A stretch of DNA of 64,000 nucleotides from an uncultured Actinomycetota bacterium (GTDB taxonomy: Bacteria; Actinomycetota; Acidimicrobiia; Spongiisociales; UBA4744), in the NCBI GenBank assembly GCA_963718995.1, contig CAVRAP010000017.1, positions 22,637 to 86,636 on the forward strand, written 5' to 3'. The notes beneath the pieces are model-generated. The model ran no database searches. It was given only the letters and a program-made list of their open reading frames with translations, and had not been told where the DNA came from. Below, one piece after another: positions 3,839 to 64,000 of the stretch. Each line of letters starts with the position of its first letter. The first letter of the stretch is position 1. The position numbers and the translations under genes are program-made.

Positions 3839-4897
3839 ATGGCGACATCCCGAGGGGGCTCAACAACGCAGAGCTATCTGGCAGTGATCAAGGTGGTGGG
3901 TGTTGGCGGCGGCGGCGTCAATGCGATCAACCGCATGATCGACGCCGGTGTGCGCGGGGTGGAGTTCATAGCGATCAACACCGACGCTCAAGCACTGCTC
4001 ATGTCAGACGCCGACATCAAGCTCGATCTGGGCCGGGACATCACGCGCGGATTGGGAGCCGGGGCCAATCCCGAGGTGGGCAAGGCCGCTGCCGAAGGTC
4101 ACAAAGAAGAGCTCGAGGAAGTGTTGAAGGGTGCCGACATGGTGTTCGTCACCGCCGGTGAGGGCGGCGGAACGGGCACCGGCGCCGCTCCCATCGTCGC
4201 CAGCGTCGCTCGCGGGATCGGTGCTTTGACGGTGGGTGTGGTGACCCGACCGTTTGGTTTCGAGGGCCGGCGTCGTTCGGTACAAGCGGAACAGGGAATC
4301 CAGGATCTGCGGGAAGCGGTTGACACCCTCATCGTCATTCCCAATGACCGGCTCCTGGAGATCGCCGATGATCGCACGCCGATCATTGATGCCTTTCGGA
4401 TGGCTGATGAAGTACTGATGGGTGGCGTGGCCGGCATCACGGACCTCATCACAACGCCAGGCCTCATCAACGTTGACTTCGCCGATGTCCGCACGATTCT
4501 CTCCGATGCGGGAACGGCAGTTATGGGCATTGGCCGAGCTTCCGGGGAGGACCGGGCCGACCAAGCGGCTCAGCGAGCCATTTCGAGTTCCATGCTGGAG
4601 ACTTCGATGGAAGGCGCACGCGGTGTGTTGCTGACCATCGCCGGACCTTCGGCGATGACGCTCCATGAAGTCAATCAGGCTGCGACGGTGGTCGCCGAAC
4701 ACAGCGACGCGGACGCCGAGATCATCTTTGGCGCCGTGGTCGATGACAACCTCGGCGAGGAGATCAAAGTGACGGTTATCGCGGCAGGGTTCGATCGCGG
4801 GCGCCGCAAGGAGACCCGCGGGATGGCGTCGGGCACCGTGACCAGGTCCACCGATGATGGCGATGACCTCGATATCCCGAGCTTCGTGCAGGGATGA
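3839..4897 (+). CDS. ftsZ: Cell division GTPase FtsZ
   Basis: 352 aa. Tubulin signature [17 protein letters not shown], and the C-terminal docking peptide DDLDIPSFV. Confidence 0.97.
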
Positions 4898-5518
4898 TGC
4901 GACCGCCGGGATTCCGGGGGGTCGCTTTCACGAGTTCCCGGCAGGGTGACCTCCGATCGGATGATGCCGCACGGCGTGCCGTCTCTTCCCGACTGGCCAT
5001 CCCGGAGTCCTGGGCCACGGTGCATCAGGTTCACGGCGGCACCGTCGTTGAAGCCACGGGACCAGGCTCGCTCGCCGAGGCCGACTCCCTCTACACCGCG
5101 GCAGCCGGCTTGCCCCTGGCCGTTTTCACCGCAGATTGTCTCGCCGTGGTCCTCGAAGCGGATCGGGGCGTGGGAATCGCCCATGCCGGATGGCGCGGAG
5201 TCGTGGCTGGAGTCGTTGACAACCTCCGGGCGACTATGGAAGCGGCGGGTTGGAATCTGCTGCGAGCCGCCATCGGTCCTGGGATCGGACCTTGCTGTTT
5301 CGAGGTGGGACCTGAGGTTGCTGCCCGGTTTCCGGCCAGCACCTCGACGACGACCTGGGGAACGTCGAGTGTCGACCTGCCCGCGGCCGTTGCTGCCCGG
5401 CTCAACGGCCTAGAGACTATGGTCGGCCGGGGTGTGTACCCGTTGCAGCGACGGATACTTTTCGCATCGGCGCGATGGGACCCCCGCCCGCATGGCCGGG
5501 ATCGCTTGGCTGCCATGA
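4894..5518 (+). pseudogene. pgeF: PgeF/YfiH (peptidoglycan editing factor, DUF152 family); reading frame broken near 5414-5434 as sequenced
   Basis: Frame 1 carries the N-terminal and central motifs (HQVHGG, FTADCLAV, IAHAGWRG, IGPGIGPCCFEVGPEV). The conserved C-terminus VCTRCSDGYFSHRRDGTPARMAGIAWLP* is in frame 2, which is open from 5414 with TGA at 5516-5518. A G4 run at 5429-5432 lies in the switch interval. ATGA overlap with the ftsZ stop. Confidence 0.8.
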
Positions 5519-6174
5519 GTCTCGAGATGGTTCGTCGGCGGATCGCGGCTGCAGCCGGGCGCTGTGGTCGGGACGTCTCAGAGATCACGCTGATCGCCGT
5601 GGGCAAGACGCACCCTGTTGAAACGCTGATGGAGCTCTACGGGGCCGGTCATCGGGACTTCGGAGAGAACCGGGCCGGAGAGTTGGTCGACAAAGTGGCC
5701 TCCATGCCATCGGATGTTCGCTGGCATTTCATCGGTCCTCTGCAACGGAACAAGGTGAGGTTGGTGCGGCCCAGCGTGGACATGCTCCATTCGATGGATC
5801 GGCTGAAGCTTGCCGAGGCCTGGCTGAAGGGACCCGGGACGGCTCCTCCTGTTCTGATGGAAGTCAACATCGCGAATGAACCACAGAAATCCGGCGTGTC
5901 GATCGACGAGGCAGAAGCGATGGCCGATCGACTGGTCGCCCTCGGGGTGGAGGTGCGAGGTGTCATGGCGATCCCTCCCGTCGTCGCTGAGGCAGAGCAA
6001 ACCCGGCTGTTCTTCGCCCGGTTGGCAAGGTTGCGAGACGATCTGGCAGCCCGACATCCGGCCGTTCGAGAACTCTCGATGGGCATGACGGACGACTTTG
6101 AGGTAGCAATTGAGGAAGGAGCGACGATGATTCGCGTCGGACGGGCTATCTTTGGTCCGAGAGTCGAGCAATAA
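5515..6174 (+). CDS. yggS: YggS/PLPBP family pyridoxal-phosphate homeostasis protein
   Basis: The ATG at 5515 overlaps the frame-2 TGA of pgeF (ATGA). Translation ...ITLIAVGKTHPVETL..GHRDFGENR...WHFIGPLQRNK...ELSMGMTDDFEVAIEEGATMIRVGRAIFG. The 426-aa ORF in the track (4894..6174) is a read-through artefact joining it to pgeF. Confidence 0.85.
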   Translation: MSLEMVRRRIAAAAGRCGRDVSEITLIAVGKTHPVETLMELYGAGHRDFGENRAGELVDKVASMPSDVRWHFIGPLQRNKVRLVRPSVDMLHSMDRLKLAEAWLKGPGTAPPVLMEVNIANEPQKSGVSIDEAEAMADRLVALGVEVRGVMAIPPVVAEAEQTRLFFARLARLRDDLAARHPAVRELSMGMTDDFEVAIEEGATMIRVGRAIFGPRVEQ

Positions 6175-37022: not shown

Positions 37023-38582
37023 TCAGGTTTTGGGCGCCCTAACGAATACGCTTGCGGTGCCGTCTTGCGATAGCTCCTGCCACTCGCTGGACTCGGTGAG
37101 GATCTGGGCGAGCGGGGTCTTGGGTTCAACCAACACCCAATCGATTGCGTGCTTTTCCAGCGTATCCCTCCACTCCGGGTCCCCGGTGATCGCCTTTTCG
37201 TACTCTCGAGTGAGGTCCGGTCCGTAGAAGTCGGTCTGTCCGTCGATGAACACCTCGATCTCTGGCCAACAGCAGTACAGGAGGTATCCACCCCAGGCAA
37301 ACTGGTTGAGGACGCGATCTCCGGGCGGGTTCTCTCCGAGCTCAGCCATCGTTTCGACGGGGAACAGGTCTTGATCAAAGAAGAACCTGCTGTCTTGTTC
37401 CGCATGCCCCCATGCCAACCCGACAACCAATACGATCACAGCAGAAAGCGCTCCTCCGACGACCCTGCGATTGATTTCTGACCAGGGTTCGCCGCGGACC
37501 GCCAGCCGGGAGCGCAAGGAAAACAGAAAATCCGGATGCTCCCTCAACCAGGCATGGGCCTGCTCGGCGAGGAGCGGGACGGCGACGAGGGCGAAGAGCG
37601 GTGCGTTCCGAAAGGAATAGAGAGCAAAAGCTGTCCATCCCACAAAGAGGAGCCGAGCCGAAACCCGTTTCGGAACCGAGAGGACCACCCCCAAGAGGAT
37701 CAGAACGAGCAACGGCCAAAAACCTTTGAGATGGAAGTCGGGTGAGTTGTATTCGCTCGTGAACCGGAGCAAGAAGTCGTCACCGATGTACCCGAAACTA
37801 TTCGCTATCAAACCGATACCGTTGGGGTTCGCCAGTGATGCGAGGATCGATGCAGCAAGCACAAGGGATAGATGCTTGGCGCGACTGAGTTTGCGATCGA
37901 TGAGGGCGGCCAGCAGATACATGCTGATCAGGACGAATCCGATAATGAAGGCCCCATGCAGGTTTGCCCAGAAGAGCATGAGGGGCGGCAGAAACCACAG
38001 ATGCCGGCGGCGACCCAGCTCGTAGTCTTCCAACGCGATTAACCAATAAGCGACAAATACTACGGTGAACACGTGGGGTCGGGCAGCCCAGTGAACGACG
38101 GATGCTACGGCGCCAAACACTGAGAATGTCGCCGCCAGCGAAACCGGGATCCCGCGTTTGAGCAAAGCTCGGCTCGTCATTGCCCAGGGGGCTGCAACCA
38201 GCACAGCCGTCAAGAGACCGATTCCGTTGAACCCGGCAATCCGATAGGCAACAGCCATGACCAGTTGTGCAAGCCACTCGTGGACGACTACCGCCATTCC
38301 GGCCGCTGTGTAGGAGAACACGTCGACCAAGGGCAAAGCTCGATTGTCGAGCATCCACTCCCCAACTCGCAGATGTCTCCCCAGGTCGCCGTCCCGGCTT
38401 GTGAGCACGGATCCCAAGACGACAGCTGCGAAAAAGGCAATCACAAAGACGACATCGTTGGGAGAGGGAAGGAACCACCTTTGCATGCCTCGCGGGACCG
38501 GAGCGCGGTTGGGAACGTGCGATGTAGTGCGTCCGCTGCTGCCTTCTCTGCTGTCGACGGCTTCGCGTGGCGGTTCAGGCAT
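37023..38582 (-). CDS. Large polytopic membrane protein with a C-terminal extracytoplasmic domain (putative GT-C-like); paralog of 50330..51943
   Basis: 519 aa. N-terminal loop DGDLGRHLRVGEWMLDNRALPLVDVFSYTAAG..HEWLAQL, LFWANLHGAFIIGF, and C-terminal FIDGQTDFYGPDL...ASVFVRA. The same landmarks recur in the 50330 ORF. The start could be the ATG at 38486. Confidence 0.55.
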   Translation of the reverse strand: MPEPPREAVDSREGSSGRTTSHVPNRAPVPRGMQRWFLPSPNDVVFVIAFFAAVVLGSVLTSRDGDLGRHLRVGEWMLDNRALPLVDVFSYTAAGMAVVVHEWLAQLVMAVAYRIAGFNGIGLLTAVLVAAPWAMTSRALLKRGIPVSLAATFSVFGAVASVVHWAARPHVFTVVFVAYWLIALEDYELGRRRHLWFLPPLMLFWANLHGAFIIGFVLISMYLLAALIDRKLSRAKHLSLVLAASILASLANPNGIGLIANSFGYIGDDFLLRFTSEYNSPDFHLKGFWPLLVLILLGVVLSVPKRVSARLLFVGWTAFALYSFRNAPLFALVAVPLLAEQAHAWLREHPDFLFSLRSRLAVRGEPWSEINRRVVGGALSAVIVLVVGLAWGHAEQDSRFFFDQDLFPVETMAELGENPPGDRVLNQFAWGGYLLYCCWPEIEVFIDGQTDFYGPDLTREYEKAITGDPEWRDTLEKHAIDWVLVEPKTPLAQILTESSEWQELSQDGTASVFVRAPKT

Positions 38583-43920: not shown

Positions 43921-44796
43921 ATGGGCAGGCGAACCCTGGTCCTGATTGTGGCTCTGCTCCTGGCGGGCATTGCTGCGTTTGCCGTATGGCAGTTCCTTTC
44001 CAACGTGGAAGAGGAGAAAGAGGCCGAGCTCCTGTTGCGGGCTGTGTACCGGGTTTCCGGCGGCACAATTACCGAAGGCACCGATGGAAGCCTGGTCCTA
44101 TCGCAAGAGCGCGCCGTGCTCAGCGAAGAGGAGACGAGATTTCTCCCCGACAACGCGATCGGCTCGCTGGAACAACTGACCGCGACCCTCACGGGTCGGG
44201 TCGCCGCTGGTCCAATCTCGAACAACTCGATATTGACCACAGACCAGTGGGTCGAGTTGACGGCGGACATCAAGCCGTTGGCGGAACGCATTCCAGCAGG
44301 GAAACAAGCGATCACGATCGGGGTCGACAACATCCAGGGGGTCAACGGCTTTATTGAGGCGGGGGACCGGATCAATGTCATCGTTACGCTGACCGCACCG
44401 ATCGAACAGATCGCTGAAGACGTCATTGCGTCGGAGACCCTGACACCGGACGAGCTGAAGGCGCTCGAAGCTGAACTCGAGCAGGGCATCATCAGCCGTT
44501 TCGTGTTGCAGGGGCTCCCGGTCCTGGCCGTTGGAAATGAGATTCGGGCCGACGAGGAAGCCAACCAGACCGTGACGGTGACCACCGTGCCCGTTGAAGG
44601 CCAGGAAGCCGCCCAGCAAGTGCAGACTGGTGTCATCACCCTCGAGGTAACTCCGGAAGAAGCCGAGAGGATCGTGTACACGTTCGCAACGGGGACAGTG
44701 TGGCTGACGCTGGTTCCGGAAGACTTTGTCCCGGTTCCCACTGACGGCATCACTCGAGAGAACCTGTTCGACACCGCTGAGGAGCTTGGCCAATAA
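43921..44796 (+). CDS. cpaB: Flp pilus assembly protein CpaB
   Basis: 291 aa. N-terminal TM anchor MGRRTLVLIVALLLAGIAAFAVWQFL, then SAF/RcpC-like regions. GGAG upstream. First gene of the tad block. Confidence 0.8.
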   Translation: MGRRTLVLIVALLLAGIAAFAVWQFLSNVEEEKEAELLLRAVYRVSGGTITEGTDGSLVLSQERAVLSEEETRFLPDNAIGSLEQLTATLTGRVAAGPISNNSILTTDQWVELTADIKPLAERIPAGKQAITIGVDNIQGVNGFIEAGDRINVIVTLTAPIEQIAEDVIASETLTPDELKALEAELEQGIISRFVLQGLPVLAVGNEIRADEEANQTVTVTTVPVEGQEAAQQVQTGVITLEVTPEEAERIVYTFATGTVWLTLVPEDFVPVPTDGITRENLFDTAEELGQ

Positions 44797-44797
44797 C

Positions 44798-45998
44798 ATG
44801 AGCGACCTTTTCGACGACGCCGGGATCGTCATCGTTGACGATGATGACGATTTCCTCGACGAAGCAAAACGCCTCTTCGATGGCCGCGTTCCAACCGTGC
44901 GCAGCATCGCTGATGCTCAGCGCGGCGTCGAGGAGGGCTCCGTTGATCTGGTCATGCTTGGCCCATCGTTTGCACATGAGGCCGGGCTGCAGGGAGTCGG
45001 GGTCTTACTTGCCCAAGATCCCGACCTGGCCATTGTGCTGGTTGCCGGCACGATCACTGCCCCCTTGCTGCGGTCGGCCATGCGAGCCGGATTGAAGGAT
45101 GTGATTGAGGCTCCGTTGACGATACAGAGCGTCACCGACGCCGTTGGCCAGATCGAGCGCAAGGCCACGCCGTCAGCGGCCGGCCACGCCTCCTCCCGAA
45201 CCGTTCAGTACGCCGAAGGGCCAAGGGAAGGTCGTCACCGTAATGTCGGCGAAGGGCGGTAGCGGTAAAACGGTTACCGCAACCAATCTGGCGATGCTTC
45301 TTGCTCAGAGACACGACCCTTCCCGGGTGTGCATCGTCGACGCCGACTTGCAGTTCGGTGATGTGTGTCTCGTGTTACAGCTCGAACCCAAATTGACGAT
45401 GGTCAACGCGGCGCATGAGCTCCACCGACTCGATGAACCACTCCTCGAGTCGCTTTTGACGACCCATCCGTCGGGACTGCGGGTGCTCGCAGCGCCGCTC
45501 GAGCCGGCTTTCGCCGATGAGATTTCGACCGCCGCCATGACGGAGATCATCACCAAGCTGCGCGGCATGTTCGACTACGTCATTGTCGACACGGCCTCAC
45601 TGCTCGATGAGCTCCTCTTGTCGTTGCTCGAACGGGCCGACCAGGTGCTGTTTGTGCTCGATATGGACCTTCCAAGCGTCAAGAACGCCAAGCTGGCCTT
45701 GGAAACGCTGCGGTTGCTGAAATTCCCGGCATCGAAGGTCCAGTTGGTGCTGAACCGATCCAATGCTCGCGCTCGACTCGACGAGAAAGAGATTGAACGG
45801 TCATTGAAGCTGAAGATCTCAGCTGCCATTCCATCCGACGGCATGGTCCCTGCTTCGATCAACGAGGGCCGACCGGTTGTCGAGTCCGCCCCCAGATCAC
45901 GGGTGGCGAAAGGTTTCGACACCGTCTACGACCTGGTCGCGACGACACCAAAGCAAGACACTTCAGGCAAGACAGGCAAGCGCCGATGGATGTCCTGA
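44798..45998 (+). pseudogene. tadZ: TadZ/CpaE (receiver-like domain plus ParA/MinD-type ATPase), split over two reading frames as sequenced
   Basis: The receiver-like domain (MSDLFDDAGIVIVDDDDDFL...VDLVMLGPSF...VLVAG) is in frame 2, which stops at 45262. The ATPase (KVVTVMSAKGGSGKTVTATNLA...VIVDT...) is in frame 0, where the only in-frame start ahead of the P-loop is a TTG at 45144. The frames overlap over 45144-45262. Confidence 0.7.
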
Positions 45999-46072: not shown

Positions 46073-47439
<1,367 letters not shown>

Positions 47440-47443
<4 letters not shown>

Positions 47444-48738
47444 AACGGATACGCAGCCTCGTCGCGGCGGCCACGGTCGCCATTCTGGTGCTCGGAGCCG
47501 GGGCGGCGGCATTTGCGCAAACCGACAACGGCGCCCCGGTTGTCGAGATCACCGATGTCAATACGGTCCGCTATCCACAGGTGCAGATGATTGTCGATTT
47601 CTTGAACCTGGAGGAAGCTCTCGATCCGGCCGGCTTGGAAGTCACCGAGAACGGGAATCCGGTCAGCGATCTCGAAATTGAAACCATCGCCGAGTCACGG
47701 GTCCAGGTCGGGATTGTTCTGGTCATCGATGCCAGCGGCAGCATGGAAGGTGAGCCGATCGAAGCGGCCAAAGCAGCGGCCCTTTCGTTCATCAACGAAA
47801 AGCGGAATGAAGATTTCATCGCAATTGCTACCTTCGCCGACGAAGTCCAGGTCGTACGGGGCTTCACCAGCACGAGGTCTGCGCTGATTGCCAGCGTGGA
47901 AGGGATCGTCGCCAAGGGCGACACGGCCTTTTACGATGGGATTGTTCGGTCGACGGAATTGTTCACCGGCGATGCCGAGCGACTGGAGCGCAACATGATT
48001 GTGCTCACCGACGGCAAGGATGAGGGGAGCGCCGCAACGCTCGACGATGCTCTCGCCGCCGTGACGGACAAAGGTGTGCGTGTCTTCGGCGTAGCGCTCG
48101 AGTCGACCGCCTTCGATCCAGCCGACCTGCAAACCGTTGTTGCCGAGACCAGCGGCCTGTACCTCTCGACCCCCGAACCGGGTGAGTTGAGCGGTCTCTA
48201 TGAGCAGATCAAGAGGGAACTCGATAACAAGGTCGTGGTGCGCTTTACCGCCACTCAGGATCGTGCAGGCGACCTCGCTATCGGGGTCGGCTACCAGGCG
48301 CTGGCCACGAGTACCACCGTCAATGTGCCCGGCTTCGTCAAGCCTCCCGCACCCACTACAACAACAACGGTGACATTTGCTCAACCCGAGCCTTACTCGC
48401 CCGCGGCGGCCGGGCCGGTTTCCTCCGGGACGCTGCGACTGCTGGGAACGTTGGCAGTTGGTTTGGGAATCGTCCTCTTTATCATCATCCTGGCCGGCCC
48501 GGGCGACGAGGACGGAGCTTCGGCGTTTCGCAAGCGTCTCCAAGCGTACGGGCGAGGCCGAACCGCAGCTCCCGAAGACGAGAAGAAGGGTTTCCTGGCA
48601 AGGATCCCCGGCTTGAGCCGATTCACTAAGTCGGCCGAGGAAGCAGCTCAGCGACGCGGTCTGCTCAGTGGCATCAATGCCGTTTTGGAACAGGCCAACA
48701 TTCCGCTGCGCGGGGAGAAGCACTGGCCGCAGGTTTAG
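47440..48738 (+). CDS. Secreted, membrane-anchored vWA (MIDAS) domain protein whose C-terminal ~90 aa look like the N-terminus of TadB
   Basis: Signal peptide ending AAAFA/QTDN. vWA domain with DASGS...GDTAFY...LTDGKDE. Thr-rich linker, TM helix LRLLGTLAVGLGIVLFIIILAG, cytoplasmic tail ...LSGINAVLEQANIPLR, then a stop at 48736. Start overlaps the tadA stop (GTGA). Confidence 0.75.
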
Positions 48739-48809
48739 GGCTGAGTGTTATCGCCGGGGTTCTAGCCGGACTGTTTGCGACGAGTTGGATTGCGGCAGGC
48801 GTTGGATTC

Positions 48810-49403
48810 TTGGTCGTTCTCCTTCTGGTAGCGGCGGCTATTCAGTTCGCCGGTACCCGGGAAAAGCGTGTGTTCGAACGGCAACTCCCGGACACATTGA
48901 CGCTCCTGTCGACGTCGCTGCGCGCCGGCTATTCGCTGCTGCAGGCGGTCGAAGCGGTGGCCGCCGAAGCTCCCGCACCTACCGGGCGAGAGTTCGGACG
49001 GTCGATTGCCGAGTCCCGGTTGGGGCGTCCGGTGGTGGACACCATGCGAGCTATTTCCGATCGCATGCGGTCCCAGGACTTCCAGTGGGCGGTCATGGCC
49101 ATCGAGATCCAGCGTGAAGTCGGCGGTAACCTCGCCGAAGTTTTGCAGACGGTAGCCGACACGATGCGGCAACGGAACCGGCTGAAGGGGGAGATCAGGG
49201 CGCTGACGGCCGAGGGCCGTCTCTCCGCAATTGTCCTCGCTTTGTTGCCCATTCTGCTGTTCGCGTTCTTGTTCGCAACCAATCGCAGCTATCTCGAACC
49301 GCTCTTCACCGAGACGGCAGGGCTCATTGGGATTGGTGCAGGGCTGGCTTTGATGGCATCTGGTGTGTATTGGCTCAAGAAGATCGTGGATATCGAGGTC
49401 TAA
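48810..49403 (+). CDS. tadB: TadB (T2SSF-domain pilus platform protein); the ORF appears 5'-truncated by a frame change from the upstream gene
   Basis: T2SSF core LPDTLTLLSTSLRAGYSLLQAVEAV...FQWAVMAIEIQREVGGNLAEVL. The frame is open back to 48630 with no ATG, GTG or TTG before the TTG at 48810, which falls in the middle of a TM helix (…GVGFLVVLLLVAAAIQF). Confidence 0.8.
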   Translation: MVVLLLVAAAIQFAGTREKRVFERQLPDTLTLLSTSLRAGYSLLQAVEAVAAEAPAPTGREFGRSIAESRLGRPVVDTMRAISDRMRSQDFQWAVMAIEIQREVGGNLAEVLQTVADTMRQRNRLKGEIRALTAEGRLSAIVLALLPILLFAFLFATNRSYLEPLFTETAGLIGIGAGLALMASGVYWLKKIVDIEV

Positions 49404-50321
49404 ATGGATCCCAAAATGTTCGCTGTTGGGTCGGTGTTCGTGGCCATGACCGGGCTGGTGCTCTGGATCGGCTTCGGGATCGTTCGCGCCCGCAAGGCTG
49501 CCACGGAACGGCTGGCGGTCTACGGCTCTGCGGAACTGATCCGCGACGAGACCCTCAAGAAGCCGGTCGCCGAGCGCGCCATCGCCCCCATCTTCCTGGC
49601 CATCGGCCGGATCCTGGCAAGGTTTACCCCGGTGGGGTGGCTGAAGAAGACCCAGCGGCGGATCGTACTGTCCGGCAGTCCGGGGAACCTGGACGCCAAC
49701 TCGTGGGCCGTCATCAAACTCATGACGTCGGCCGGTTCCATCATCTTGTGGTTCTTTTTGCAGGGTGGTTTGGACTTCCGGATGAAGGTTTTGTCCTTTG
49801 CCCTGCTGGCCATCCTCGGCTTCTTCGGACCTGATGTCTGGCTGACCCGCAAGATCGACGATCGGCGCCTGGCTATGCAAAGAGCCCTGCCAGATGTTCT
49901 CGACTTGCTGGTGATCAGCGTCGAGGCCGGACTCGGGTTTGACTCGGCCCTGGCTCGTGTAGTCGGGACCGTGCCCGGGCCACTGTCCGAAGAGTTCTTC
50001 CGCATGCTTCAGGAAACCCGGGTGGGCGTGAGTCGCCGTGACGCCATGCGCCATCTCACCGATCGCACGGATCTGGATGAACTGCGTTCGTTCCTATTGG
50101 CCATGATGCAGGCTGAGGCCTTCGGTGTTGCGATCGCCCAGGTATTGAGGGTCCAAGCCGATGAAATGCGTATCCAGAGGCGTCAGCGAGCCCAGGAGAA
50201 GGCTTTCGCCGCTCCTGTGAAGATGGTTTTCCCGCTCGTTTTCTGCATCTTCCCGGCGCTCTTCATCGTTCTGTTGGGTCCGGCTGCCATTCAGATCTAC
50301 GAAACCTTCACCGAGCTTTAG
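49404..50321 (+). CDS. tadC: TadC (T2SSF-domain pilus platform protein)
   Basis: 305 aa. ALPDVLDLLVISVEAGLGFDSALARV...LLAMMQAEAFGVAIAQVL, C-terminal TM helices. Starts 1 nt after the tadB stop. Confidence 0.85.
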   Translation: MDPKMFAVGSVFVAMTGLVLWIGFGIVRARKAATERLAVYGSAELIRDETLKKPVAERAIAPIFLAIGRILARFTPVGWLKKTQRRIVLSGSPGNLDANSWAVIKLMTSAGSIILWFFLQGGLDFRMKVLSFALLAILGFFGPDVWLTRKIDDRRLAMQRALPDVLDLLVISVEAGLGFDSALARVVGTVPGPLSEEFFRMLQETRVGVSRRDAMRHLTDRTDLDELRSFLLAMMQAEAFGVAIAQVLRVQADEMRIQRRQRAQEKAFAAPVKMVFPLVFCIFPALFIVLLGPAAIQIYETFTEL

Positions 50322-50329
50322 GGTCCGGG

Positions 50330-51943
50330 GTGGCCGCCGCCACAGACGGTCAGCGTTCTCCGATCTGGCAGCGGCTTTCGGTACGCCATCTCCTGTTGCT
50401 CACGCCGTGGATCGGGGTGGTGATCGGGGCGTCCCGGCCGATCCGCGACAACTCTTTCCTTTGGCACGTTCGGGCCGGTGATCTTCAACTCGCTTCCGGC
50501 CGGGTGCTCACAACCGACCCCTTTTCTTTGACGATGGCTGGCGAACCCTGGCGAACGCAGTCCTGGCTCGCCGACCTCCTCTATGGTTCGCTCGAACAGG
50601 CAACGGGCGGCCTCGCCTGGGTGCCCTGGTTGCTGGTGGCCTGTGGCGCCTCGGTGCTCGGTTTGGTTGGATGGCTGACCTTCCGGCGAGTATCCGATCC
50701 GCTGCCTGTGGCGTTGGCTCTGGTTGCCCTCATGTGGTTGGGTCTCCCCAATCTGGTTCCAAGGCCGGTGCTCTTCTCGCTGGTCCTGCTTGCCCTATTG
50801 ATGGTGGTGCTCGAGGTCCAGTTGGACTGGCCCCTCCCTTTGATCTTGTGGGTGTGGGCCGGATTCCACGGTTCTTTTGTGCTAGGCCTCGGCCTTTTGC
50901 TGCTGGACGCTTTGCGCCGACGCATGGCATGGCAGAAAGCAGCCGGTCGAATCGGGGTGGCGCTCATCGCGGTGAGTCTCACTGCCCACGGCCTGGGAGT
51001 TTGGTCGATGCTGGGGTCGTTCCTAACCAATCGTGGTGCCCTGGACTTCATCTCGGAATGGGCCGCGCCGGATCTTCTGTCCGTGGCTGTTGCTCCGTAT
51101 GTCCTGGTTATGGTTGCCGTCCTGGTTGCTGCAGCGTCGGGCCGGATCGAGGCCCGGGAGTTGTGGGTCGTCGCACCCCTGCTCGTTTTCGGTCTGACCT
51201 CGGCCAGAGCGATCATGCCGGCGGCGATCGTGCTCGTACCGTTTGCGGCTTCCGTGTGGCGGCCTGCCGCCGACTCGCGAATGCTGGCCCGCGGTCCGGC
51301 CCGCGCCAACCTGGTCATTGCCACCCTCTTGATTGCCCTCCCTTTTATTGCTCTCGTCGGATTCCCGGGGTTGGACACAGACCGGTTTCCCATAGAAGCT
51401 GCCACGTATCTCGACACCGAAAAGGTGTGGCACGATGATGCGACCGGCGGCTATTTGATCTACTTGAACCAGCTCCCCGTGTTTATCGACGACCGGGCCG
51501 AGCTGTACGGCGCCGAGTTCTTTGGTGAGTTCGTCAATACCCGGCGAGGGACTCCGGTCTGGCGGAGGGCTTTCGACGCCTACGACATTCAACAGGCGCT
51601 GGTTGCCGCCGATGCAGGACTCGCCGAGGTGCTGACGGCCGAGGGGTGGCACGTCGACTTCTCGGATGAAAGCTGGACAGTCTTTTCGCGGGCTAGGGCA
51701 ATTGGCCGGCGGTTCCTCTGTACCCGCCGAAGAGGTTCTTTTCTCGCCGAAGCTGGGACAACAGTCGTCCGCCCCCCAAACGTTCCGGCATCCCTTGTTT
51801 CGGGCCGGGTGAACTGTGTCCCGTCCTCGGTAACGGCTCCGCGCGGCGCTGCTGGAAATGGCCGAGGACGCTCAGCGCTTGAGGGGCTGTCCGTGGCGGC
51901 TCCTGTCCGGAAGAGTGCACAACGAGAGTGGGGGACCCTGTAG
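50330..51943 (+). CDS. Large polytopic membrane protein (putative GT-C-like), paralog of 37023..38582; the last ~80 codons are doubtful
   Basis: GTG 8 nt after the tadC stop. Landmarks shared with the paralog: DNSFLWHVRAGDLQL..DPFSLTMAG..QSWLADL, VWAGFHGSFVLGL, FIDDRAELYGAEF, ESWTVFSRA. After ~51700 the translation becomes Arg-rich and non-protein-like, and the stop sits in a terminator loop. Confidence 0.55.
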   Translation: MAAATDGQRSPIWQRLSVRHLLLLTPWIGVVIGASRPIRDNSFLWHVRAGDLQLASGRVLTTDPFSLTMAGEPWRTQSWLADLLYGSLEQATGGLAWVPWLLVACGASVLGLVGWLTFRRVSDPLPVALALVALMWLGLPNLVPRPVLFSLVLLALLMVVLEVQLDWPLPLILWVWAGFHGSFVLGLGLLLLDALRRRMAWQKAAGRIGVALIAVSLTAHGLGVWSMLGSFLTNRGALDFISEWAAPDLLSVAVAPYVLVMVAVLVAAASGRIEARELWVVAPLLVFGLTSARAIMPAAIVLVPFAASVWRPAADSRMLARGPARANLVIATLLIALPFIALVGFPGLDTDRFPIEAATYLDTEKVWHDDATGGYLIYLNQLPVFIDDRAELYGAEFFGEFVNTRRGTPVWRRAFDAYDIQQALVAADAGLAEVLTAEGWHVDFSDESWTVFSRARAIGRRFLCTRRRGSFLAEAGTTVVRPPNVPASLVSGRVNCVPSSVTAPRGAAGNGRGRSALEGLSVAAPVRKSAQREWGTL

Positions 51944-51976: not shown

Positions 51977-52165
51977 CTAGTTCTCCACGGAGCTTGCTAT
52001 CTCGCTCCACATCGCCGAGTTCTGATCGCCGGCAAACTGTACCGCAACCAGGGCTACCACTGCGATGAGGACTACGAGTAATCCCCACTCGACCAATCCG
52101 GCGGCTCGCTCGCTGTGGAATCGGATCCCTACAAGCTTACCCAGTGGCTCCCAGCCCATTGACAT
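51977..52165 (-). CDS. Divergent Flp-family pilin-like protein (Ala at the expected cleavage Gly, EW instead of EY)
   Basis: 62 aa: ...HSERAAGLVEWGLLVVLIAVVALVAVQFAG... aligns residue for residue with the flp-1 ERGASMVEYALLVVLIAIIAIL region. 14 nt downstream of flp-1. Confidence 0.55.
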   Translation of the reverse strand: MSMGWEPLGKLVGIRFHSERAAGLVEWGLLVVLIAVVALVAVQFAGDQNSAMWSEIASSVEN

Positions 52166-52179
52166 CGACCTTTCGATAC

Positions 52180-52365
52180 TTACTGGTTGAGGGCGCTGCC
52201 GATTTCGCTGAACGTATCCGAAACCTGGTTACCGGCGAAGGTGATCGCCAGAATCGCGATGATCGCAATCAACACGACCAGCAGTGCGTACTCAACCATG
52301 CTTGCGCCACGCTCGTCCTTGAAGGACTCCCAGCGGGCCGCCAACTCACTCATTACTGTCAACAC
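52180..52365 (-). CDS. flp: Flp pilin (canonical G/xxxxEY processing motif)
   Basis: ...WESFKDERG/ASMVEYALLVVLIAIIAILAITFAGNQV... The GTG at 52365 has GGAGG 6 nt upstream (alternative ATG at 52353). The tracked ORF start at 52413 is less likely. Confidence 0.8.
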   Translation of the reverse strand: MLTVMSELAARWESFKDERGASMVEYALLVVLIAIIAILAITFAGNQVSDTFSEIGSALNQ

Positions 52366-52466: not shown

Positions 52467-53114
52467 TCAATGCCTGTTGACAAGCCCAAGCCGGATAGCT
52501 TCAACCGCTGCCTGCGTGCGGTCGCTGATGCTCAGCTTCTCGTAGATTGAAGCCAGGTGGTTCTTGACTGTTTTTGGCGATATGTACAGGCGTTCTGCCA
52601 GTTCATCGGTGGCGCTCACGCCTTCGCCGAGCAACGTCATCAGCTCGCGTTCGCGGGCGGTGAGCGAGGCGGCTCCCGGGTCGAGGGACGGCTCCATGTA
52701 GTGACCAAGAATCTCACGGAGAGTGGTCGTTAGCGGAGTCAAGTCTTCGCCAGCCGCGACGGCTCTGACTGCAGCGGCAAGCTCGGGTAGCGGGGTTGAT
52801 TTCGAGAGAAAACCGCGCGCGCCTGCCTCGATGGCTTGAGCACGGCGCTTATCGTCGGCGTGCATGGTGACGATGATGGCGGGCAGCGACCCTTTCAAAA
52901 CGGCTAGGACTTCGAATCCGGACAGGTCTGGCATTTCCAGATCGATCAGGAGCACATCCGCCACGGTTTTTTTGGCAAGAGCGACGAGTTCGACACCGCC
53001 TGAGGCTGTTCCGGCAACGCGGAGATCCGGAATGGCGGCCAGAGCCTGACTCACACCCTCCGCAAAGAGGGTGTGGTCGTCGGCGACAAGTACGGAAATC
53101 AATCTGGCCCCCAT
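52467..53114 (-). CDS. NarL/FixJ-family response regulator (receiver plus LuxR-type HTH)
   Basis: 215 aa. VLVADDH...LLIDLEMPD receiver and ELAERLYISPKTVKNHLASIYEKL HTH. Overlaps the kinase gene end by 16 nt. Confidence 0.85.
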   Translation of the reverse strand: MGARLISVLVADDHTLFAEGVSQALAAIPDLRVAGTASGGVELVALAKKTVADVLLIDLEMPDLSGFEVLAVLKGSLPAIIVTMHADDKRRAQAIEAGARGFLSKSTPLPELAAAVRAVAAGEDLTPLTTTLREILGHYMEPSLDPGAASLTARERELMTLLGEGVSATDELAERLYISPKTVKNHLASIYEKLSISDRTQAAVEAIRLGLVNRH

Positions 53115-54637
53115 GACACGGTAACGGCGGTACCCCCCTTGGTGCTCGTTATGTTGAGTGAAGCCCCGATCCGCTCTGCCCTTTCTTCCATTCCCAGTAA
53201 GCCGTAGTGACCTTCGGGGACTCGATCTCTTCGGAAACCGTTCCCTTCGTCATGCACGGTAATCGCTCCCTCATCGAAGTCCACCGTCCCGTGGACGGTC
53301 ACAATCGAACTTCCCGAATGCCGGATAGCATTGCGGACCGCTTCGGTAATGATGGCGATGAGATCGGGAGCGATCGATGGCCGCGGGGGCCTGCGCTCGG
53401 TGATGCGAACGTCGACTTCCGGATCCCCATCGGCAACCGAAGCGCTAAGGCTCTTCATCACTTCCGTCACACTTGGCTGCTCTGGCATGCGGAGGTCGGC
53501 AACGGTGCTGCGCACATCCTCAACCATGCCACCGACCGACATGCGCAGCTCGCGTAAGTGTTCGGCAAGGTCGGGGTCTGCCGGGTGTTGCAGGAGTGCG
53601 AGGTCGAGAGCTAAGCCCAGGGATGCCAGGGAAGGTCCGATATCATCGTGGAGGTCGCGGGCCAAACGGGCTCGCTCTTCCCGGATCGCTCGCCGGGCGA
53701 TGTCTTGGAGCAACAAGATGTTGGAAAAGGCGAGCGCCACCGGTTGCAGTGACTCTGCGGTCGCCTGGTATTTGGTCGGTGTCAACTCCTCATCAGAAAT
53801 CAGAACAACCATGCCTACGTCCCGGCTTCCGACCGAGAGAGGAATGATCGAACGGTGGTCGTTTGGTTCCTCACTGCCGCGGCGGGCGACCACAACCGGG
53901 CCGTCGTCACCGGCTAGCGCCACCACAGCTGCATGGAACGAAGCCACCTCGGCCAGGCTCTCCAGGGCCGCGTGACCGACGGTAACGGGGTTCAATTCAG
54001 CGGTATCGGCAACCTCGGCGAATCGGGTCAGCAGATTGTTGGCGCGTTCGAGACGTTCGAGTCGCTGTGATACTTCGATCGATGCCGCCGCAAACGCGTC
54101 GGCACGCTCACCCTCTTCAAGTAGCAGGCGGCGGGCTTGACCGAAGGTGAACCCGATGAGGAGGTACAGGCTCGCCCATTGGAAGAAAAGAGGTAGGGCG
54201 AAGTCCTCGCCGATCCCCACAGAGATGATGATGAGTACCCCGGTGGCGAGCCCGGCCGTTGCCAGGCCACTACGGAAACCGCCGAAAACGCCGGCCAACA
54301 TGATCGGTGTGAGCGAGAGAAGCAGGAACGGACTGTTCAGCCCGCCACTCAGACTCACCGCCATCATCACCAGGGTGATGCCGACGAGCGAGGTGAGTTC
54401 GCGAATCCATGTCGTTCGCAAGTAGGAACGGGGCAGGATCTGCGACCCCAGCACATAGACGCTGGCGGCCATGGCTGCAGCGATTGCATCGGGTCCGATT
54501 GCTTCGGTCCCAAGGACCGCGGCTTCCTTGCGGGCCTCCCAAAACGAGATAAATACACCGAGGGCAAGCGCTACCCAAAGAAAGGCGAGGAGAACCTTGT
54601 GAAATCGTGATTCCCATGGGTTCTTGCGTTCGATCAT
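53099..54637 (-). CDS. Sensor histidine kinase (multi-TM N-terminus, GAF-like region, HisKA_3, HATPase)
   Basis: 512 aa. About 5-6 N-terminal TM helices, H-box ARDLHDDIGPSLASL, N-box ITEAVRNAIRHSG, G-box DEGNGF. Confidence 0.85.
   Translation of the reverse strand: MIERKNPWESRFHKVLLAFLWVALALGVFISFWEARKEAAVLGTEAIGPDAIAAAMAASVYVLGSQILPRSYLRTTWIRELTSLVGITLVMMAVSLSGGLNSPFLLLSLTPIMLAGVFGGFRSGLATAGLATGVLIIISVGIGEDFALPLFFQWASLYLLIGFTFGQARRLLLEEGERADAFAAASIEVSQRLERLERANNLLTRFAEVADTAELNPVTVGHAALESLAEVASFHAAVVALAGDDGPVVVARRGSEEPNDHRSIIPLSVGSRDVGMVVLISDEELTPTKYQATAESLQPVALAFSNILLLQDIARRAIREERARLARDLHDDIGPSLASLGLALDLALLQHPADPDLAEHLRELRMSVGGMVEDVRSTVADLRMPEQPSVTEVMKSLSASVADGDPEVDVRITERRPPRPSIAPDLIAIITEAVRNAIRHSGSSIVTVHGTVDFDEGAITVHDEGNGFRRDRVPEGHYGLLGMEERAERIGASLNITSTKGGTAVTVSWGPD

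Positions 54638-62050: not shown

Positions 62051-64000
<1,950 letters not shown>

What the first reader, a model, noticed from the sequence alone, without database searches (positions are those of the whole stretch)
47440..49403. Extracellular vWA/MIDAS domain apparently fused to the TadB pilus platform protein (joined across a one-base frame break)
Seen in the sequence. ORF 47440-48738 (frame 1) encodes five parts in order: a cleavable signal peptide (AAAFA/QTDN); a vWA domain with a complete MIDAS (DASGS, GDTAFY, LTDGKDE); a Thr/Pro linker; one TM helix; and about 90 cytoplasmic residues ending ...LSGINAVLEQANIPLR. The T2SSF (TadB) ORF called at 48810 starts with TTG in the middle of a TM helix. 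Its frame is open back to 48630 with no ATG, GTG or TTG, and reads GEALAAGLGLSVIAGVLAGLFATSWIAAGVGFLVVLLLVAAAIQFAGTREKRVFERQLPDTL. The two frames meet at a G4 run (48712-48715). Adding one base gives one ~650-aa protein made of an extracellular vWA domain, a TM helix and a complete TadB.

Established: vWA domains in Tad systems are normally carried by TadG-type minor pilin or anchor proteins, while TadB and TadC are purely inner-membrane platform proteins.

Inference: a ligand- or metal-binding adhesin-like module is hard-wired to the platform. It could sense or anchor surface contact, or replace a missing TadG. I do not recall this architecture being described.
Basis: partly seen in the sequence, partly recalled or inferred. 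Interest (0 to 1): 0.7.

Follow-up and report, generated by a model that had tools for sequence, protein, structure and literature searches.

The report
VWA ectodomain fused to TadB platform
The two reading frames are one gene for a Tad-pilus membrane platform protein with a metal-binding adhesion-type (VWA) domain on its outer face; the design is conserved across many uncultured actinobacteria, and the one-base break here is most likely an assembly error.

Summary
ORF 47440-48738 and the TTG ORF 48810-49403 are two halves of one gene, broken at the G4 run 48712-48715. The closest relative (93% nt identity) has G5 there. Of 80 species-level relatives, 79 carry one uninterrupted ~650-aa ORF.

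The repaired 654-aa protein reads: Sec signal peptide, beta-sandwich with an inserted VWA domain, ~30-aa Thr/Pro tether, then a complete TadB module (TM1, ~70-aa loop, TM hairpin, T2SSF domain, C-terminal TMs). All five MIDAS residues are invariant in 80 sequences. The break lies inside the TadB module.

The break is probably an assembly indel (about 0.7). The window has at least five single-base frame breaks in conserved genes, uvrA included, and related long-read MAG contigs show scattered breaks elsewhere. A real recent mutation (about 0.25) cannot be excluded without reads.

The fusion is neither unique nor unannotated. It fills more than 140 clusters at 50% identity in Acidimicrobiia, with double-VWA forms in Egibacteraceae and Euzebyales. 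It always sits in the operon cpaB-tadZ-cpaF-vwa::tadB-tadC. Six literature searches found no description, and NCBIfam has no dedicated model. What the VWA domain does is inferred, not shown.

The parts
47440..48714 (+). vwa::tadB, 5' part (codons 1-425, frame 1)
   Evidence: Translation. tblastn of the 654-aa homologue, residues 1-425 at 86% identity.
47440..47520 (+). Sec-type signal peptide (aa 1-27, KR n-region, hydrophobic core, AFA|Q)
   Evidence: Sequence. Hydropathy segment 3-28. A24, A26 and Q27 are at least 90% conserved in alignment A3.
47530..47694 (+). N-terminal four strands of the beta-sandwich (aa ~31-85)
   Evidence: AF2 strands 34-41, 47-55, 66-70 and 78-82, pLDDT 74-82.
47707..48225 (+). 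VWA domain with complete MIDAS (aa 90-262; D97, S99, S101, T162, D191)
   Evidence: Pfam PF00092 and PF13519. AF2 pLDDT about 90. Foldseek matches to ITIH1, integrin I domains and BatB. MIDAS residues 80/80 conserved.
48229..48330 (+). C-terminal three strands completing the beta-sandwich (aa 264-297)
   Evidence: AF2 strands 264-270, 277-285 and 288-296.
48331..48423 (+). Thr/Pro-rich tether (aa 298-328)
   Evidence: pLDDT below 50. Across 80 homologues the median length is 30 aa, with 30% Thr and 13% Pro.
48424..48510 (+). TM1 of the TadB module (aa ~329-357)
   Evidence: Hydropathy. AF2 helix 329-351. The TadC paralogue aligns from about residue 333.
48511..48714 (+). Cytoplasmic loop of TadB (aa ~358-425) ending in the conserved LEQANIPLxxGEA motif
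   Evidence: 13 K+R. N413, L416, E417, Q418, G426, E427 and A428 are conserved in 78-80 of 80 sequences.
48712..48715 (+). G4 run: site of the missing base (G5 in the closest relative)
   Evidence: DNA alignment A1. L011 reads CGAGGGGGAGAA.
48714..49403 (+). vwa::tadB, 3' part (codons 426-654 plus stop, frame 3)
   Evidence: tblastn residues 426-654 at 91% identity. Translation.
48714..48863 (+). TM hairpin (aa 426-475)
   Evidence: Hydropathy segment 425-475. AF2 helices 425-447 and 450-495. The TTG at 48810 lies inside it.
48897..49274 (+). T2SSF domain (aa 487-612)
   Evidence: Pfam PF00482, profile positions 2-124 of 125, 69.9 bits.
49200..49376 (+). C-terminal TM helices (aa ~588-646)
   Evidence: Hydropathy.
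43921..44796 (+). cpaB/rcpC
   Evidence: Pfam RcpC. TIGR03177.
44798..45998 (+). tadZ/cpaE (REC plus ParA/MinD ATPase), with its own one-base frame break near 45165
   Evidence: Pfam on the two ORFs. It is one 399-aa ORF in relatives. Alignment A2 and tblastn show the break.
46073..47443 (+). cpaF/tadA ATPase
   Evidence: Pfam T2SSE, 1e-63.
49404..50321 (+). tadC (second platform paralogue)
   Evidence: Pfam T2SSF. 31% identity to the TadB module.
50330..51943 (+). Conserved polytopic membrane protein with no family (438-455 aa in relatives; the stop is read through here)
51977..52353 (-). Two tandem Flp-type pilin genes (51977-52165 and 52180-52353)
   Evidence: Pfam Flp_Fap on the orthologues. 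tblastn. Sequences.

Best explanation
**One gene (shown).** Coordinates 47440-49403 hold a single gene, vwa::tadB. It encodes one of the two paralogous inner-membrane platform subunits of a Tad/Flp pilus machine of an Acidimicrobiia-type actinobacterium.

**Anatomy (shown).** The protein is a full TadB: TM1, a ~70-aa cytoplasmic loop, a TM hairpin, a cytoplasmic T2SSF domain and C-terminal TMs. Its outward-facing N-terminus is extended by three parts:
- a Sec signal peptide;
- a beta-sandwich with an inserted VWA domain that has an intact, invariant MIDAS;
- a ~30-residue Thr/Pro-rich tether.

**The frame break (inferred).** The window's copy lacks one G of a G5 run (48712-48715). This is most likely an indel error of the assembly rather than biology.

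**How it works (inferred).** TadB and TadC form the platform at the pilus base. The tethered VWA modules would therefore sit on the outer face of the membrane around the point where the Flp filament emerges. There they would use the MIDAS metal to bind an acidic side chain of a partner. Candidates are the pilus or pilin, the CpaB ring, or a wall component. This would give a monoderm Tad machine an extracytoplasmic docking or anchoring element that other Tad systems supply through separate proteins, such as a TadG/CpaL-type VWA minor pilin.
For: **One gene.**
- More than 100 full-length homologues carry VWA and T2SSF in one polypeptide.
- The syntenic loci L001-L006 have a single 654-aa ORF.
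- 79 of 80 species-representative loci are in one frame.
- The homologue maps across the break without loss of residues.

**The missing base.** Alignment A1 shows it, and L011 has G5 at the site.

**Module boundaries.**
- TadC has the same layout of TM1, loop, hairpin and T2SSF.
- TadC paralogues align to fusion residues ~333-611.
- The unfused TadB P0253 matches profile positions 318-650.

**Ectodomain.**
- AF2 gives pLDDT 75-94 for residues 33-297.
- Foldseek finds ITIH1 at 1.9e-12, ArnB, 4fx5 and integrin I domains.
- MIDAS residues D97, S99, S101, T162 and D191 are conserved 80/80.

**Artefact.**
- The window has at least five one-base frame breaks: pgeF-like near 5.41 kb, tadZ near 45.16 kb, tadB at 48.71 kb, the stop of the membrane protein near 51.69 kb, and uvrA near 63.26 kb.
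- Conserved residues continue on both sides of the break.
- L011 is broken in the same gene at another site and in polA. Other contigs of the same naming style are broken in polA, rpsA, uvrB and the HK gene.
- The 432-aa truncated product is known from one contig only.

**Context.**
- The operon cpaB-tadZ-cpaF-vwa::tadB-tadC-membrane protein, plus flp and RR/HK, is conserved in 36 of 36 long loci.
Against: **On the artefact reading.**
- No reads are available, so error and genuine mutation cannot be separated.
- Three of the five detected breaks fall in the 8-kb Tad operon (binomial p about 0.04). That would fit real decay of the operon, although detection was more sensitive there because closer relatives were available.

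**On the mechanism.**
- The ligand of the VWA domain, the stoichiometry, and even signal-peptide cleavage are inferred.
- No complex prediction could be run.
- The TadB part of the model has only moderate confidence (pLDDT about 55-84; pTM 0.42).
- The absence of minor pilins rests on a crude motif scan of 8 kb either side. It says nothing about the rest of the genome.
Confidence: 0.7

Rival explanations
1. The frameshift is a genuine recent mutation. The Tad operon of this population is being inactivated, so vwa::tadB, tadZ and the downstream membrane-protein gene are young pseudogenes.
For: Three of the five detected one-base breaks lie in the 8-kb Tad operon (p about 0.04). The sequence on both sides is still fully conserved, as expected for a very recent event.
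Against: uvrA and a pgeF-like gene are broken in the same way. Related long-read-style MAG contigs show scattered breaks in polA, rpsA and uvrB. Detection was more sensitive in the Tad region. The truncated product occurs on a single contig.
Confidence: 0.24
2. The break is functional: either a programmed -1 ribosomal frameshift or a phase-variable G tract that switches production of the full-length protein on and off.
For: The break lies in a G run. A -1 shift after GGG would restore the frame (sequence).
Against: Relatives encode the same two glycines as GGC GGC or GGT GGA, so neither a tract nor a slippery site is conserved. In 79 of 80 relatives the gene is in one frame. G4/G5 is far shorter than known contingency tracts, and CGC GGG GAG is not an X XXY YYZ heptamer.
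Confidence: 0.02
3. Two separate functional genes: a membrane-anchored VWA protein (432 aa) and a short TadB that starts at TTG 48810.
For: Both ORFs are called by an ORF finder. The 48810 ORF contains the whole T2SSF Pfam domain.
Against: No relative has this arrangement. The TTG lies inside the second helix of the TM hairpin, so the product would lack TM1, the conserved loop and half the hairpin. The break cuts the invariant LEQANIPLxxGEA motif.
Confidence: 0.02

Closest known systems
Canonical TadB/TadC (A. actinomycetemcomitans TadB/TadC; Caulobacter CpaG/CpaH), T2SSF-family platform proteins
   Same: It has a T2SSF domain. The layout of TM1, loop, hairpin, T2SSF and C-terminal TMs is the same. 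It is paired with a TadC paralogue directly downstream of the CpaF/TadA ATPase.
   Different: It carries a ~300-residue extracytoplasmic beta-sandwich/VWA module plus signal peptide and tether at the N-terminus. The reviews and the in-situ study I read describe the platform proteins as membrane or cytoplasmic-face components only (PMC6916266, PMC13170226).
TadG / CpaL-type VWA minor pilin of Tad pili
   Same: It is a VWA domain with a complete MIDAS that belongs to a Tad machine and faces outward (PMC12607857).
   Different: In CpaL the VWA domain is fused to a pilin-like module with a prepilin-peptidase site and is modelled at the pilus tip. Here it follows a Sec-type signal peptide and is fused to the platform, so it cannot leave the membrane with the filament.
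VWA-bearing modular pilins and tip adhesins of other type IV pili (S. sanguinis PilB, P. aeruginosa PilY1, Kingella PilC1)
   Same: A MIDAS-type VWA module is associated with a type IV filament machine (PMC6916266, PMC12607857).
   Different: Those are filament- or tip-associated adhesins and mechanosensors. This one is tethered about 30 residues from the membrane.
Membrane-anchored bacterial VWA proteins (BatA/BatB) and beta-sandwich+VWA folds (ITIH1, archaeal ArnB)
   Same: The fold is similar: Foldseek gives 6fpy at 1.9e-12, 8s05 at 7.6e-11, and 3ibs at 1.8e-8.
   Different: There is no link to pili for BatB or ITIH1. ArnB is a cytoplasmic regulator of the archaellum. Sequence identity is only 11-21%.

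Membership tests
TadB/TadC-type platform protein (Pfam T2SSF, PF00482) | T2SSF domain above the gathering score | tested here: met
   69.9 bits against a cut-off of 25.2, profile positions 2-124 of 125.
TadB/TadC-type platform protein (Pfam T2SSF, PF00482) | Polytopic layout: N-terminal TM, cytoplasmic loop, TM hairpin, T2SSF domain, C-terminal TMs | tested here: met
   Hydropathy runs parallel to the window's TadC. TadC paralogues align to residues ~333-611. AF2 helices agree.
TadB/TadC-type platform protein (Pfam T2SSF, PF00482) | Encoded next to a CpaF/TadA ATPase and a second T2SSF paralogue in a Tad/Flp locus | tested here: met
   The order cpaB-tadZ-cpaF-X-tadC plus flp holds in the window and in 36 of 36 long loci.
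TadB/TadC-type platform protein (Pfam T2SSF, PF00482) | Uninterrupted reading frame | tested here: not met
   The window copy is broken at 48712-48715. The frame is intact in 79 of 80 relatives.
TadB/TadC-type platform protein (Pfam T2SSF, PF00482) | Required for pilus assembly; binds the ATPase | not testable with these tools
   This needs genetics or biochemistry.
VWA domain with MIDAS (PF00092) | VWA profile match above the gathering score | tested here: met
   PF00092 at 57.2 bits against 23.8, and PF13519 at 57.1 against 27.
VWA domain with MIDAS (PF00092) | MIDAS signature DxSxS ... T ... D | tested here: met
   D97, S99, S101, T162 and D191 are invariant in 80 of 80 sequences.
VWA domain with MIDAS (PF00092) | Alpha/beta Rossmann-like VWA fold | tested here: met
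   AF2 pLDDT is about 90 over residues 90-262. Foldseek gives TM-scores of 0.75-0.81 (normalised by target length) to integrin and vWF A domains.
VWA domain with MIDAS (PF00092) | Divalent-metal-dependent ligand binding | not testable with these tools
   This needs purified ectodomain.
TadG/CpaL-type VWA minor pilin | N-terminal pilin-like module with a prepilin-peptidase site (G/A-x4-E/F followed by a hydrophobic helix) | tested here: not met
   The N-terminus is a Sec-type signal peptide ending AFA|Q. The motif scan of the window found only the Flp gene.
TadG/CpaL-type VWA minor pilin | VWA domain with MIDAS | tested here: met
Programmed frameshift / phase-variable contingency gene | Slippery site or homopolymer tract, and the frame break, conserved in relatives | tested here: not met
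   Relatives read GGC GGC or GGT GGA, and 79 of 80 are in frame.

The most novel reading that the evidence does not exclude
In several deep actinobacterial classes (Acidimicrobiia, Nitriliruptoria-type Egibacteraceae and Euzebyales, Humimicrobiaceae), the Tad platform itself carries the machine's extracytoplasmic VWA/MIDAS module. If the platform is a trimer of TadB-TadC heterodimers as modelled for Caulobacter, three tethered VWA domains would ring the pilus exit. They would take over the job done elsewhere by separate TadG/CpaL-type VWA minor pilins or by alignment proteins: priming, holding or sensing the Flp filament, or anchoring the machine in the wall of a single-membrane cell. This would be a previously undescribed way of building a type IV filament machine.
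Probability: 0.25. Interest if true: 0.65.

Novelty: new variant of a known kind. Interest (0 to 1): 0.45.

Why it matters
Platform proteins of type IV filament machines are described as membrane or cytoplasmic-face components. Adhesion-type VWA domains are known on pilins and tip proteins. A clade-wide, strictly conserved fusion of a MIDAS-bearing VWA ectodomain to TadB would place a ligand-binding module at the pilus base.

It also has practical value for annotation. These genes are currently named either 'VWA domain-containing protein' or 'type II secretion system F family protein'. In indel-prone MAGs they are split into two spurious genes, as here.

Tried and rejected
**Searches that found nothing.**
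- Six literature searches found no description of a VWA-platform fusion: TadB + von Willebrand; VWA + TadB + TadC; T2SSF + VWA; Acidimicrobiia + tight adherence; Tad pilus/vWA/CpaL; platform protein + von Willebrand + type IV pil + Actinobacteria.
- NCBIfam has no dedicated model. The best hits are generic VWA models below their cut-offs, plus a weak UpsF match.
- An exact look-up of the truncated 432-aa product found no other contig, so there is no independent confirmation of the break.
- The downstream conserved membrane protein has no Pfam or PDB-sequence match.
- Cluster look-ups for 20 divergent representatives returned few organism names, and no cultured strain was identified.

**Approaches that did not work.**
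- GC3 frame plots did not discriminate coding frames well at 62% GC.
I ran no further search on it.
- My first filter for broken fused genes over-counted, because TadC paralogue hits were included. On inspection only L011 is broken.

**Readings rejected.**
- Programmed frameshift or phase variation: no conserved tract.
- Two functional genes: the start codon lies inside a TM hairpin, and no relative is split.
Full report
**1. The observation**

The window holds a GTG ORF at 47440-48738 (432 aa) and a TTG ORF at 48810-49403 (197 aa). Relative to the first ORF, the second is reached by stepping back one base. It is open from 48630 and has no ATG, GTG or TTG before 48810.

- a signal peptide ending AAAFA|QTDN;
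- the motifs DASGS, GDTAFY and LTDGKDE;
- a Thr/Pro stretch;
- a hydrophobic helix;
- a charged stretch ending ...LSGINAVLEQANIPLR.

Adding one G to the G4 run at 48712-48715 gives a 654-aa protein. It passes the Pfam gathering scores for VWA (residues 92-251) and T2SSF (residues 487-612).

**2. One gene, not two**

Nearly all are from Acidimicrobiia MAGs. Their names are 'tight adherence protein B', 'type II secretion system F family protein' or 'VWA domain-containing protein'.

Six syntenic contigs (78-83% nt identity) carry a single 654-aa ORF between cpaF and tadC. One of these proteins maps onto the window as residues 1-425 in frame 1 and residues 426-654 in frame 3. The two pieces meet at 48714 with no residue lost.

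In the DNA alignment the relatives read CGC GGC GGC GAG or CGC GGT GGA GAA. The window reads CGC GG- GGA GAA. The closest relative found (L011, 92.9% nt identity) reads CGA GGG GGA GAA, a G5 run.

In a scan of one genome per species, at least 574 stretches encode a relative. The best 80 all cover the whole protein, and 79 of those 80 have it in one frame.

**3. Anatomy**

Hydropathy and the AlphaFold2 model (mean pLDDT 71.8; ectodomain 75-94) give the following order:

| Residues | Feature |
|---|---|
| 1-27 | signal peptide |
| 34-82 | four beta strands |
| 90-262 | VWA domain |
| 264-296 | three more strands that complete a beta-sandwich; the VWA domain is inserted in this sandwich |
| 298-328 | disordered Thr/Pro tether |
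| 329-357 | TM1 |
| up to 425 | basic loop of about 70 residues |
| 425-475 | 50-residue TM hairpin |
| 487-612 | T2SSF domain |
| about 588-646 | C-terminal TM helices |

The window's TadC has the same layout from TM1 onward. TadC paralogues in relatives align to residues ~333-611 of the fusion. An unfused 353-aa TadB in the representative library matches profile positions 318-650.

So the TM helix and the cytoplasmic residues of ORF1 are the ordinary N-terminus of TadB. The frame break lies inside TadB, in the invariant motif LEQANIPLxxGEA. The 48810 TTG lies inside the hairpin. The 48810 ORF contains the whole T2SSF Pfam domain but is not a complete TadB.

Foldseek places the ectodomain with beta-sandwich+VWA proteins: inter-alpha-inhibitor heavy chain 1 (1.9e-12), archaeal ArnB, and a Catenulispora VWA protein. 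It also matches integrin I domains and BatB.

Across 80 sequences the five MIDAS residues (D97, S99, S101, T162, D191) are invariant. The tether has a median length of 30 residues, with 30% Thr and 13% Pro.

**4. Is the break real?**

It cannot be settled without reads, but the evidence favours an assembly indel.

The window contains at least four more single-base frame breaks in conserved genes:
- **tadZ/cpaE.** It is one 399-aa ORF in relatives. Here it is split near 45165 by an extra base.
- **The membrane-protein gene after tadC.** Its stop is read through because one base is missing near 51690.
- **uvrA.** The two pieces match PDB UvrA residues 21-429 and 421-671. One extra base sits between the two cysteines of a CxxC motif near 63262-63268.
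- **A pgeF/YfiH-like gene.** It shifts frame near 5404-5415 and now runs into the next gene.

The closest relative, L011, is itself broken in the same vwa::tadB gene at a different place (residues 461/462) and in polA. Other contigs of the same 'contig_N' naming style are broken in polA, rpsA, uvrB and the histidine kinase gene. The truncated 432-aa product is known from a single 103-kb contig.

Against this, three of the five breaks lie in the 8-kb Tad operon (binomial p about 0.04). Detection was more sensitive there, because I had closer relatives for that region.

My estimates are about 0.7 for an artefact and about 0.25 for a genuine recent mutation. Programmed frameshifting or phase variation is very unlikely. 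The tract is not conserved (GGC GGC or GGT GGA in relatives), and the site is not a slippery heptamer.

**5. Context and spread**

The gene order is conserved in 36 of 36 loci long enough to judge:
- cpaB, tadZ, cpaF, vwa::tadB, tadC, then a 438-455-aa polytopic membrane protein;
- Flp pilin genes, usually two, on the other strand;
- a GerE-type response regulator and a HisKA_3 kinase.

A crude motif scan found Flp-like genes in 35 of 36 loci. It found no TadE/TadF/TadG-like gene within 8 kb either side. It also found no prepilin-peptidase motif anywhere in the window.

A profile search of 1.84 billion representatives at 50% identity listed 150 best hits. More than 140 of them are full-length fusions with E below 1e-119, so the family is large and old.

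Forms of about 895 aa carry two VWA domains before the T2SSF domain. Named examples come from Egibacteraceae and Euzebyales MAGs. Another cluster includes a Candidatus Humimicrobiaceae member. All named examples are metagenomic, and I found no cultured carrier.

**6. What it most likely does**

*Shown.* It is the TadB-type platform subunit of a conserved Tad/Flp operon. It has a conserved N-terminal VWA/MIDAS module predicted to face outward.

*Inferred.*
- The signal peptide and the orientation of TM1 put the module outside the membrane.
- Caulobacter CpaG/CpaH are modelled as a trimer of heterodimers at the pilus base (PMC13170226). By analogy, several tethered VWA modules would surround the point where the filament leaves the membrane.
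- The invariant MIDAS argues for metal-dependent binding of an acidic residue of a partner. Candidates are the Flp filament, the CpaB ring or a wall component.

In known Tad systems the VWA domain sits on a pilin-like protein (CpaL/TadG) modelled at the pilus tip (PMC12607857). Here it cannot leave the membrane, so a base-located docking, anchoring or sensing role is more plausible than a tip adhesin.

The Thr/Pro tether and the conserved unassigned membrane protein next to tadC suggest possible glycosylation. That is speculation.

**7. Comparison and novelty**

The protein meets the tested criteria for a T2SSF platform protein and for a MIDAS-type VWA domain. It fails the defining pilin-module criterion of TadG/CpaL.

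Six full-text searches found no description of a VWA-platform fusion. A review of pili in single-membrane bacteria lists only plain paralogous platform proteins (PMC6916266). NCBIfam has no dedicated model.

The architecture is nevertheless abundant in public databases under generic names. I rate it a new variant of a known kind.

**8. Verdict**

The frame break is probably technical. The fused architecture is real, conserved and undescribed, but of unknown function and so far confined to uncultured lineages. Interest: 0.45.

Noticed in passing
window 44798-45998 (break near 45165): tadZ/cpaE (REC plus ParA/MinD ATPase) is a single 399-aa ORF in relatives. Here one extra base in the linker between the two domains splits it into ORFs 44726-45262 and 45144-45998.
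   Followed up: yes
window 62051-63998 (break near 63246-63272): uvrA is split into two frames. The pieces match PDB UvrA residues 21-429 and 421-671, and one extra base lies between the two Cys codons of a CxxC motif. A broken core repair gene points to assembly indels.
   Followed up: yes
window 4894-6174 (break near 5404-5415): A pgeF/YfiH-like laccase-domain gene shifts from frame 1 to frame 2 for its last ~30 codons. As a result it reads into the next gene as one 426-aa ORF. Relatives have two genes.
   Followed up: partly
window 50330-51943; paralogue 37023-38582 (-): A polytopic membrane protein (438-455 aa in relatives) follows tadC in 36 of 36 loci. It has no Pfam, NCBIfam or PDB-sequence match; one member shows a weak EpsG hint. 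In the window its stop is read through for 83 codons because a base is missing near 51690. A 26%-identical paralogue lies upstream. It could be a glycosyltransferase- or polymerase-like partner of the Tad machine.
   Followed up: partly
window 43921-44796; whole window: A CpaB/RcpC gene is present in this actinobacterial Tad locus, although a review lists RcpC among the components missing from the Tad machines studied in single-membrane bacteria. A crude motif scan found no TadE/F/G-like gene and no prepilin-peptidase motif anywhere in the 64-kb window.
   Followed up: partly
P0144, P0146, P0149, P0150, P0292-P0296 (not in the window): Relatives of about 890-900 aa carry two VWA domains in tandem before the T2SSF domain. 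The named ones are from Egibacteraceae and Euzebyales MAGs.
   Followed up: partly
L011 8001-9963 and polA; L008, L012, L034: Related MAG contigs with 'contig_N' names carry scattered one-base frame breaks in housekeeping genes (polA, rpsA, uvrB, HK). L011 is broken in vwa::tadB at residues 461/462.
   Followed up: yes
window 51977-52353 (-), 52467-54637 (-): Two tandem Flp pilin genes, a GerE-type response regulator and a HisKA_3 kinase sit on the opposite strand right after the operon. This arrangement is conserved in 35-36 of 36 loci, which suggests dedicated two-component control of pilin expression.
   Followed up: partly
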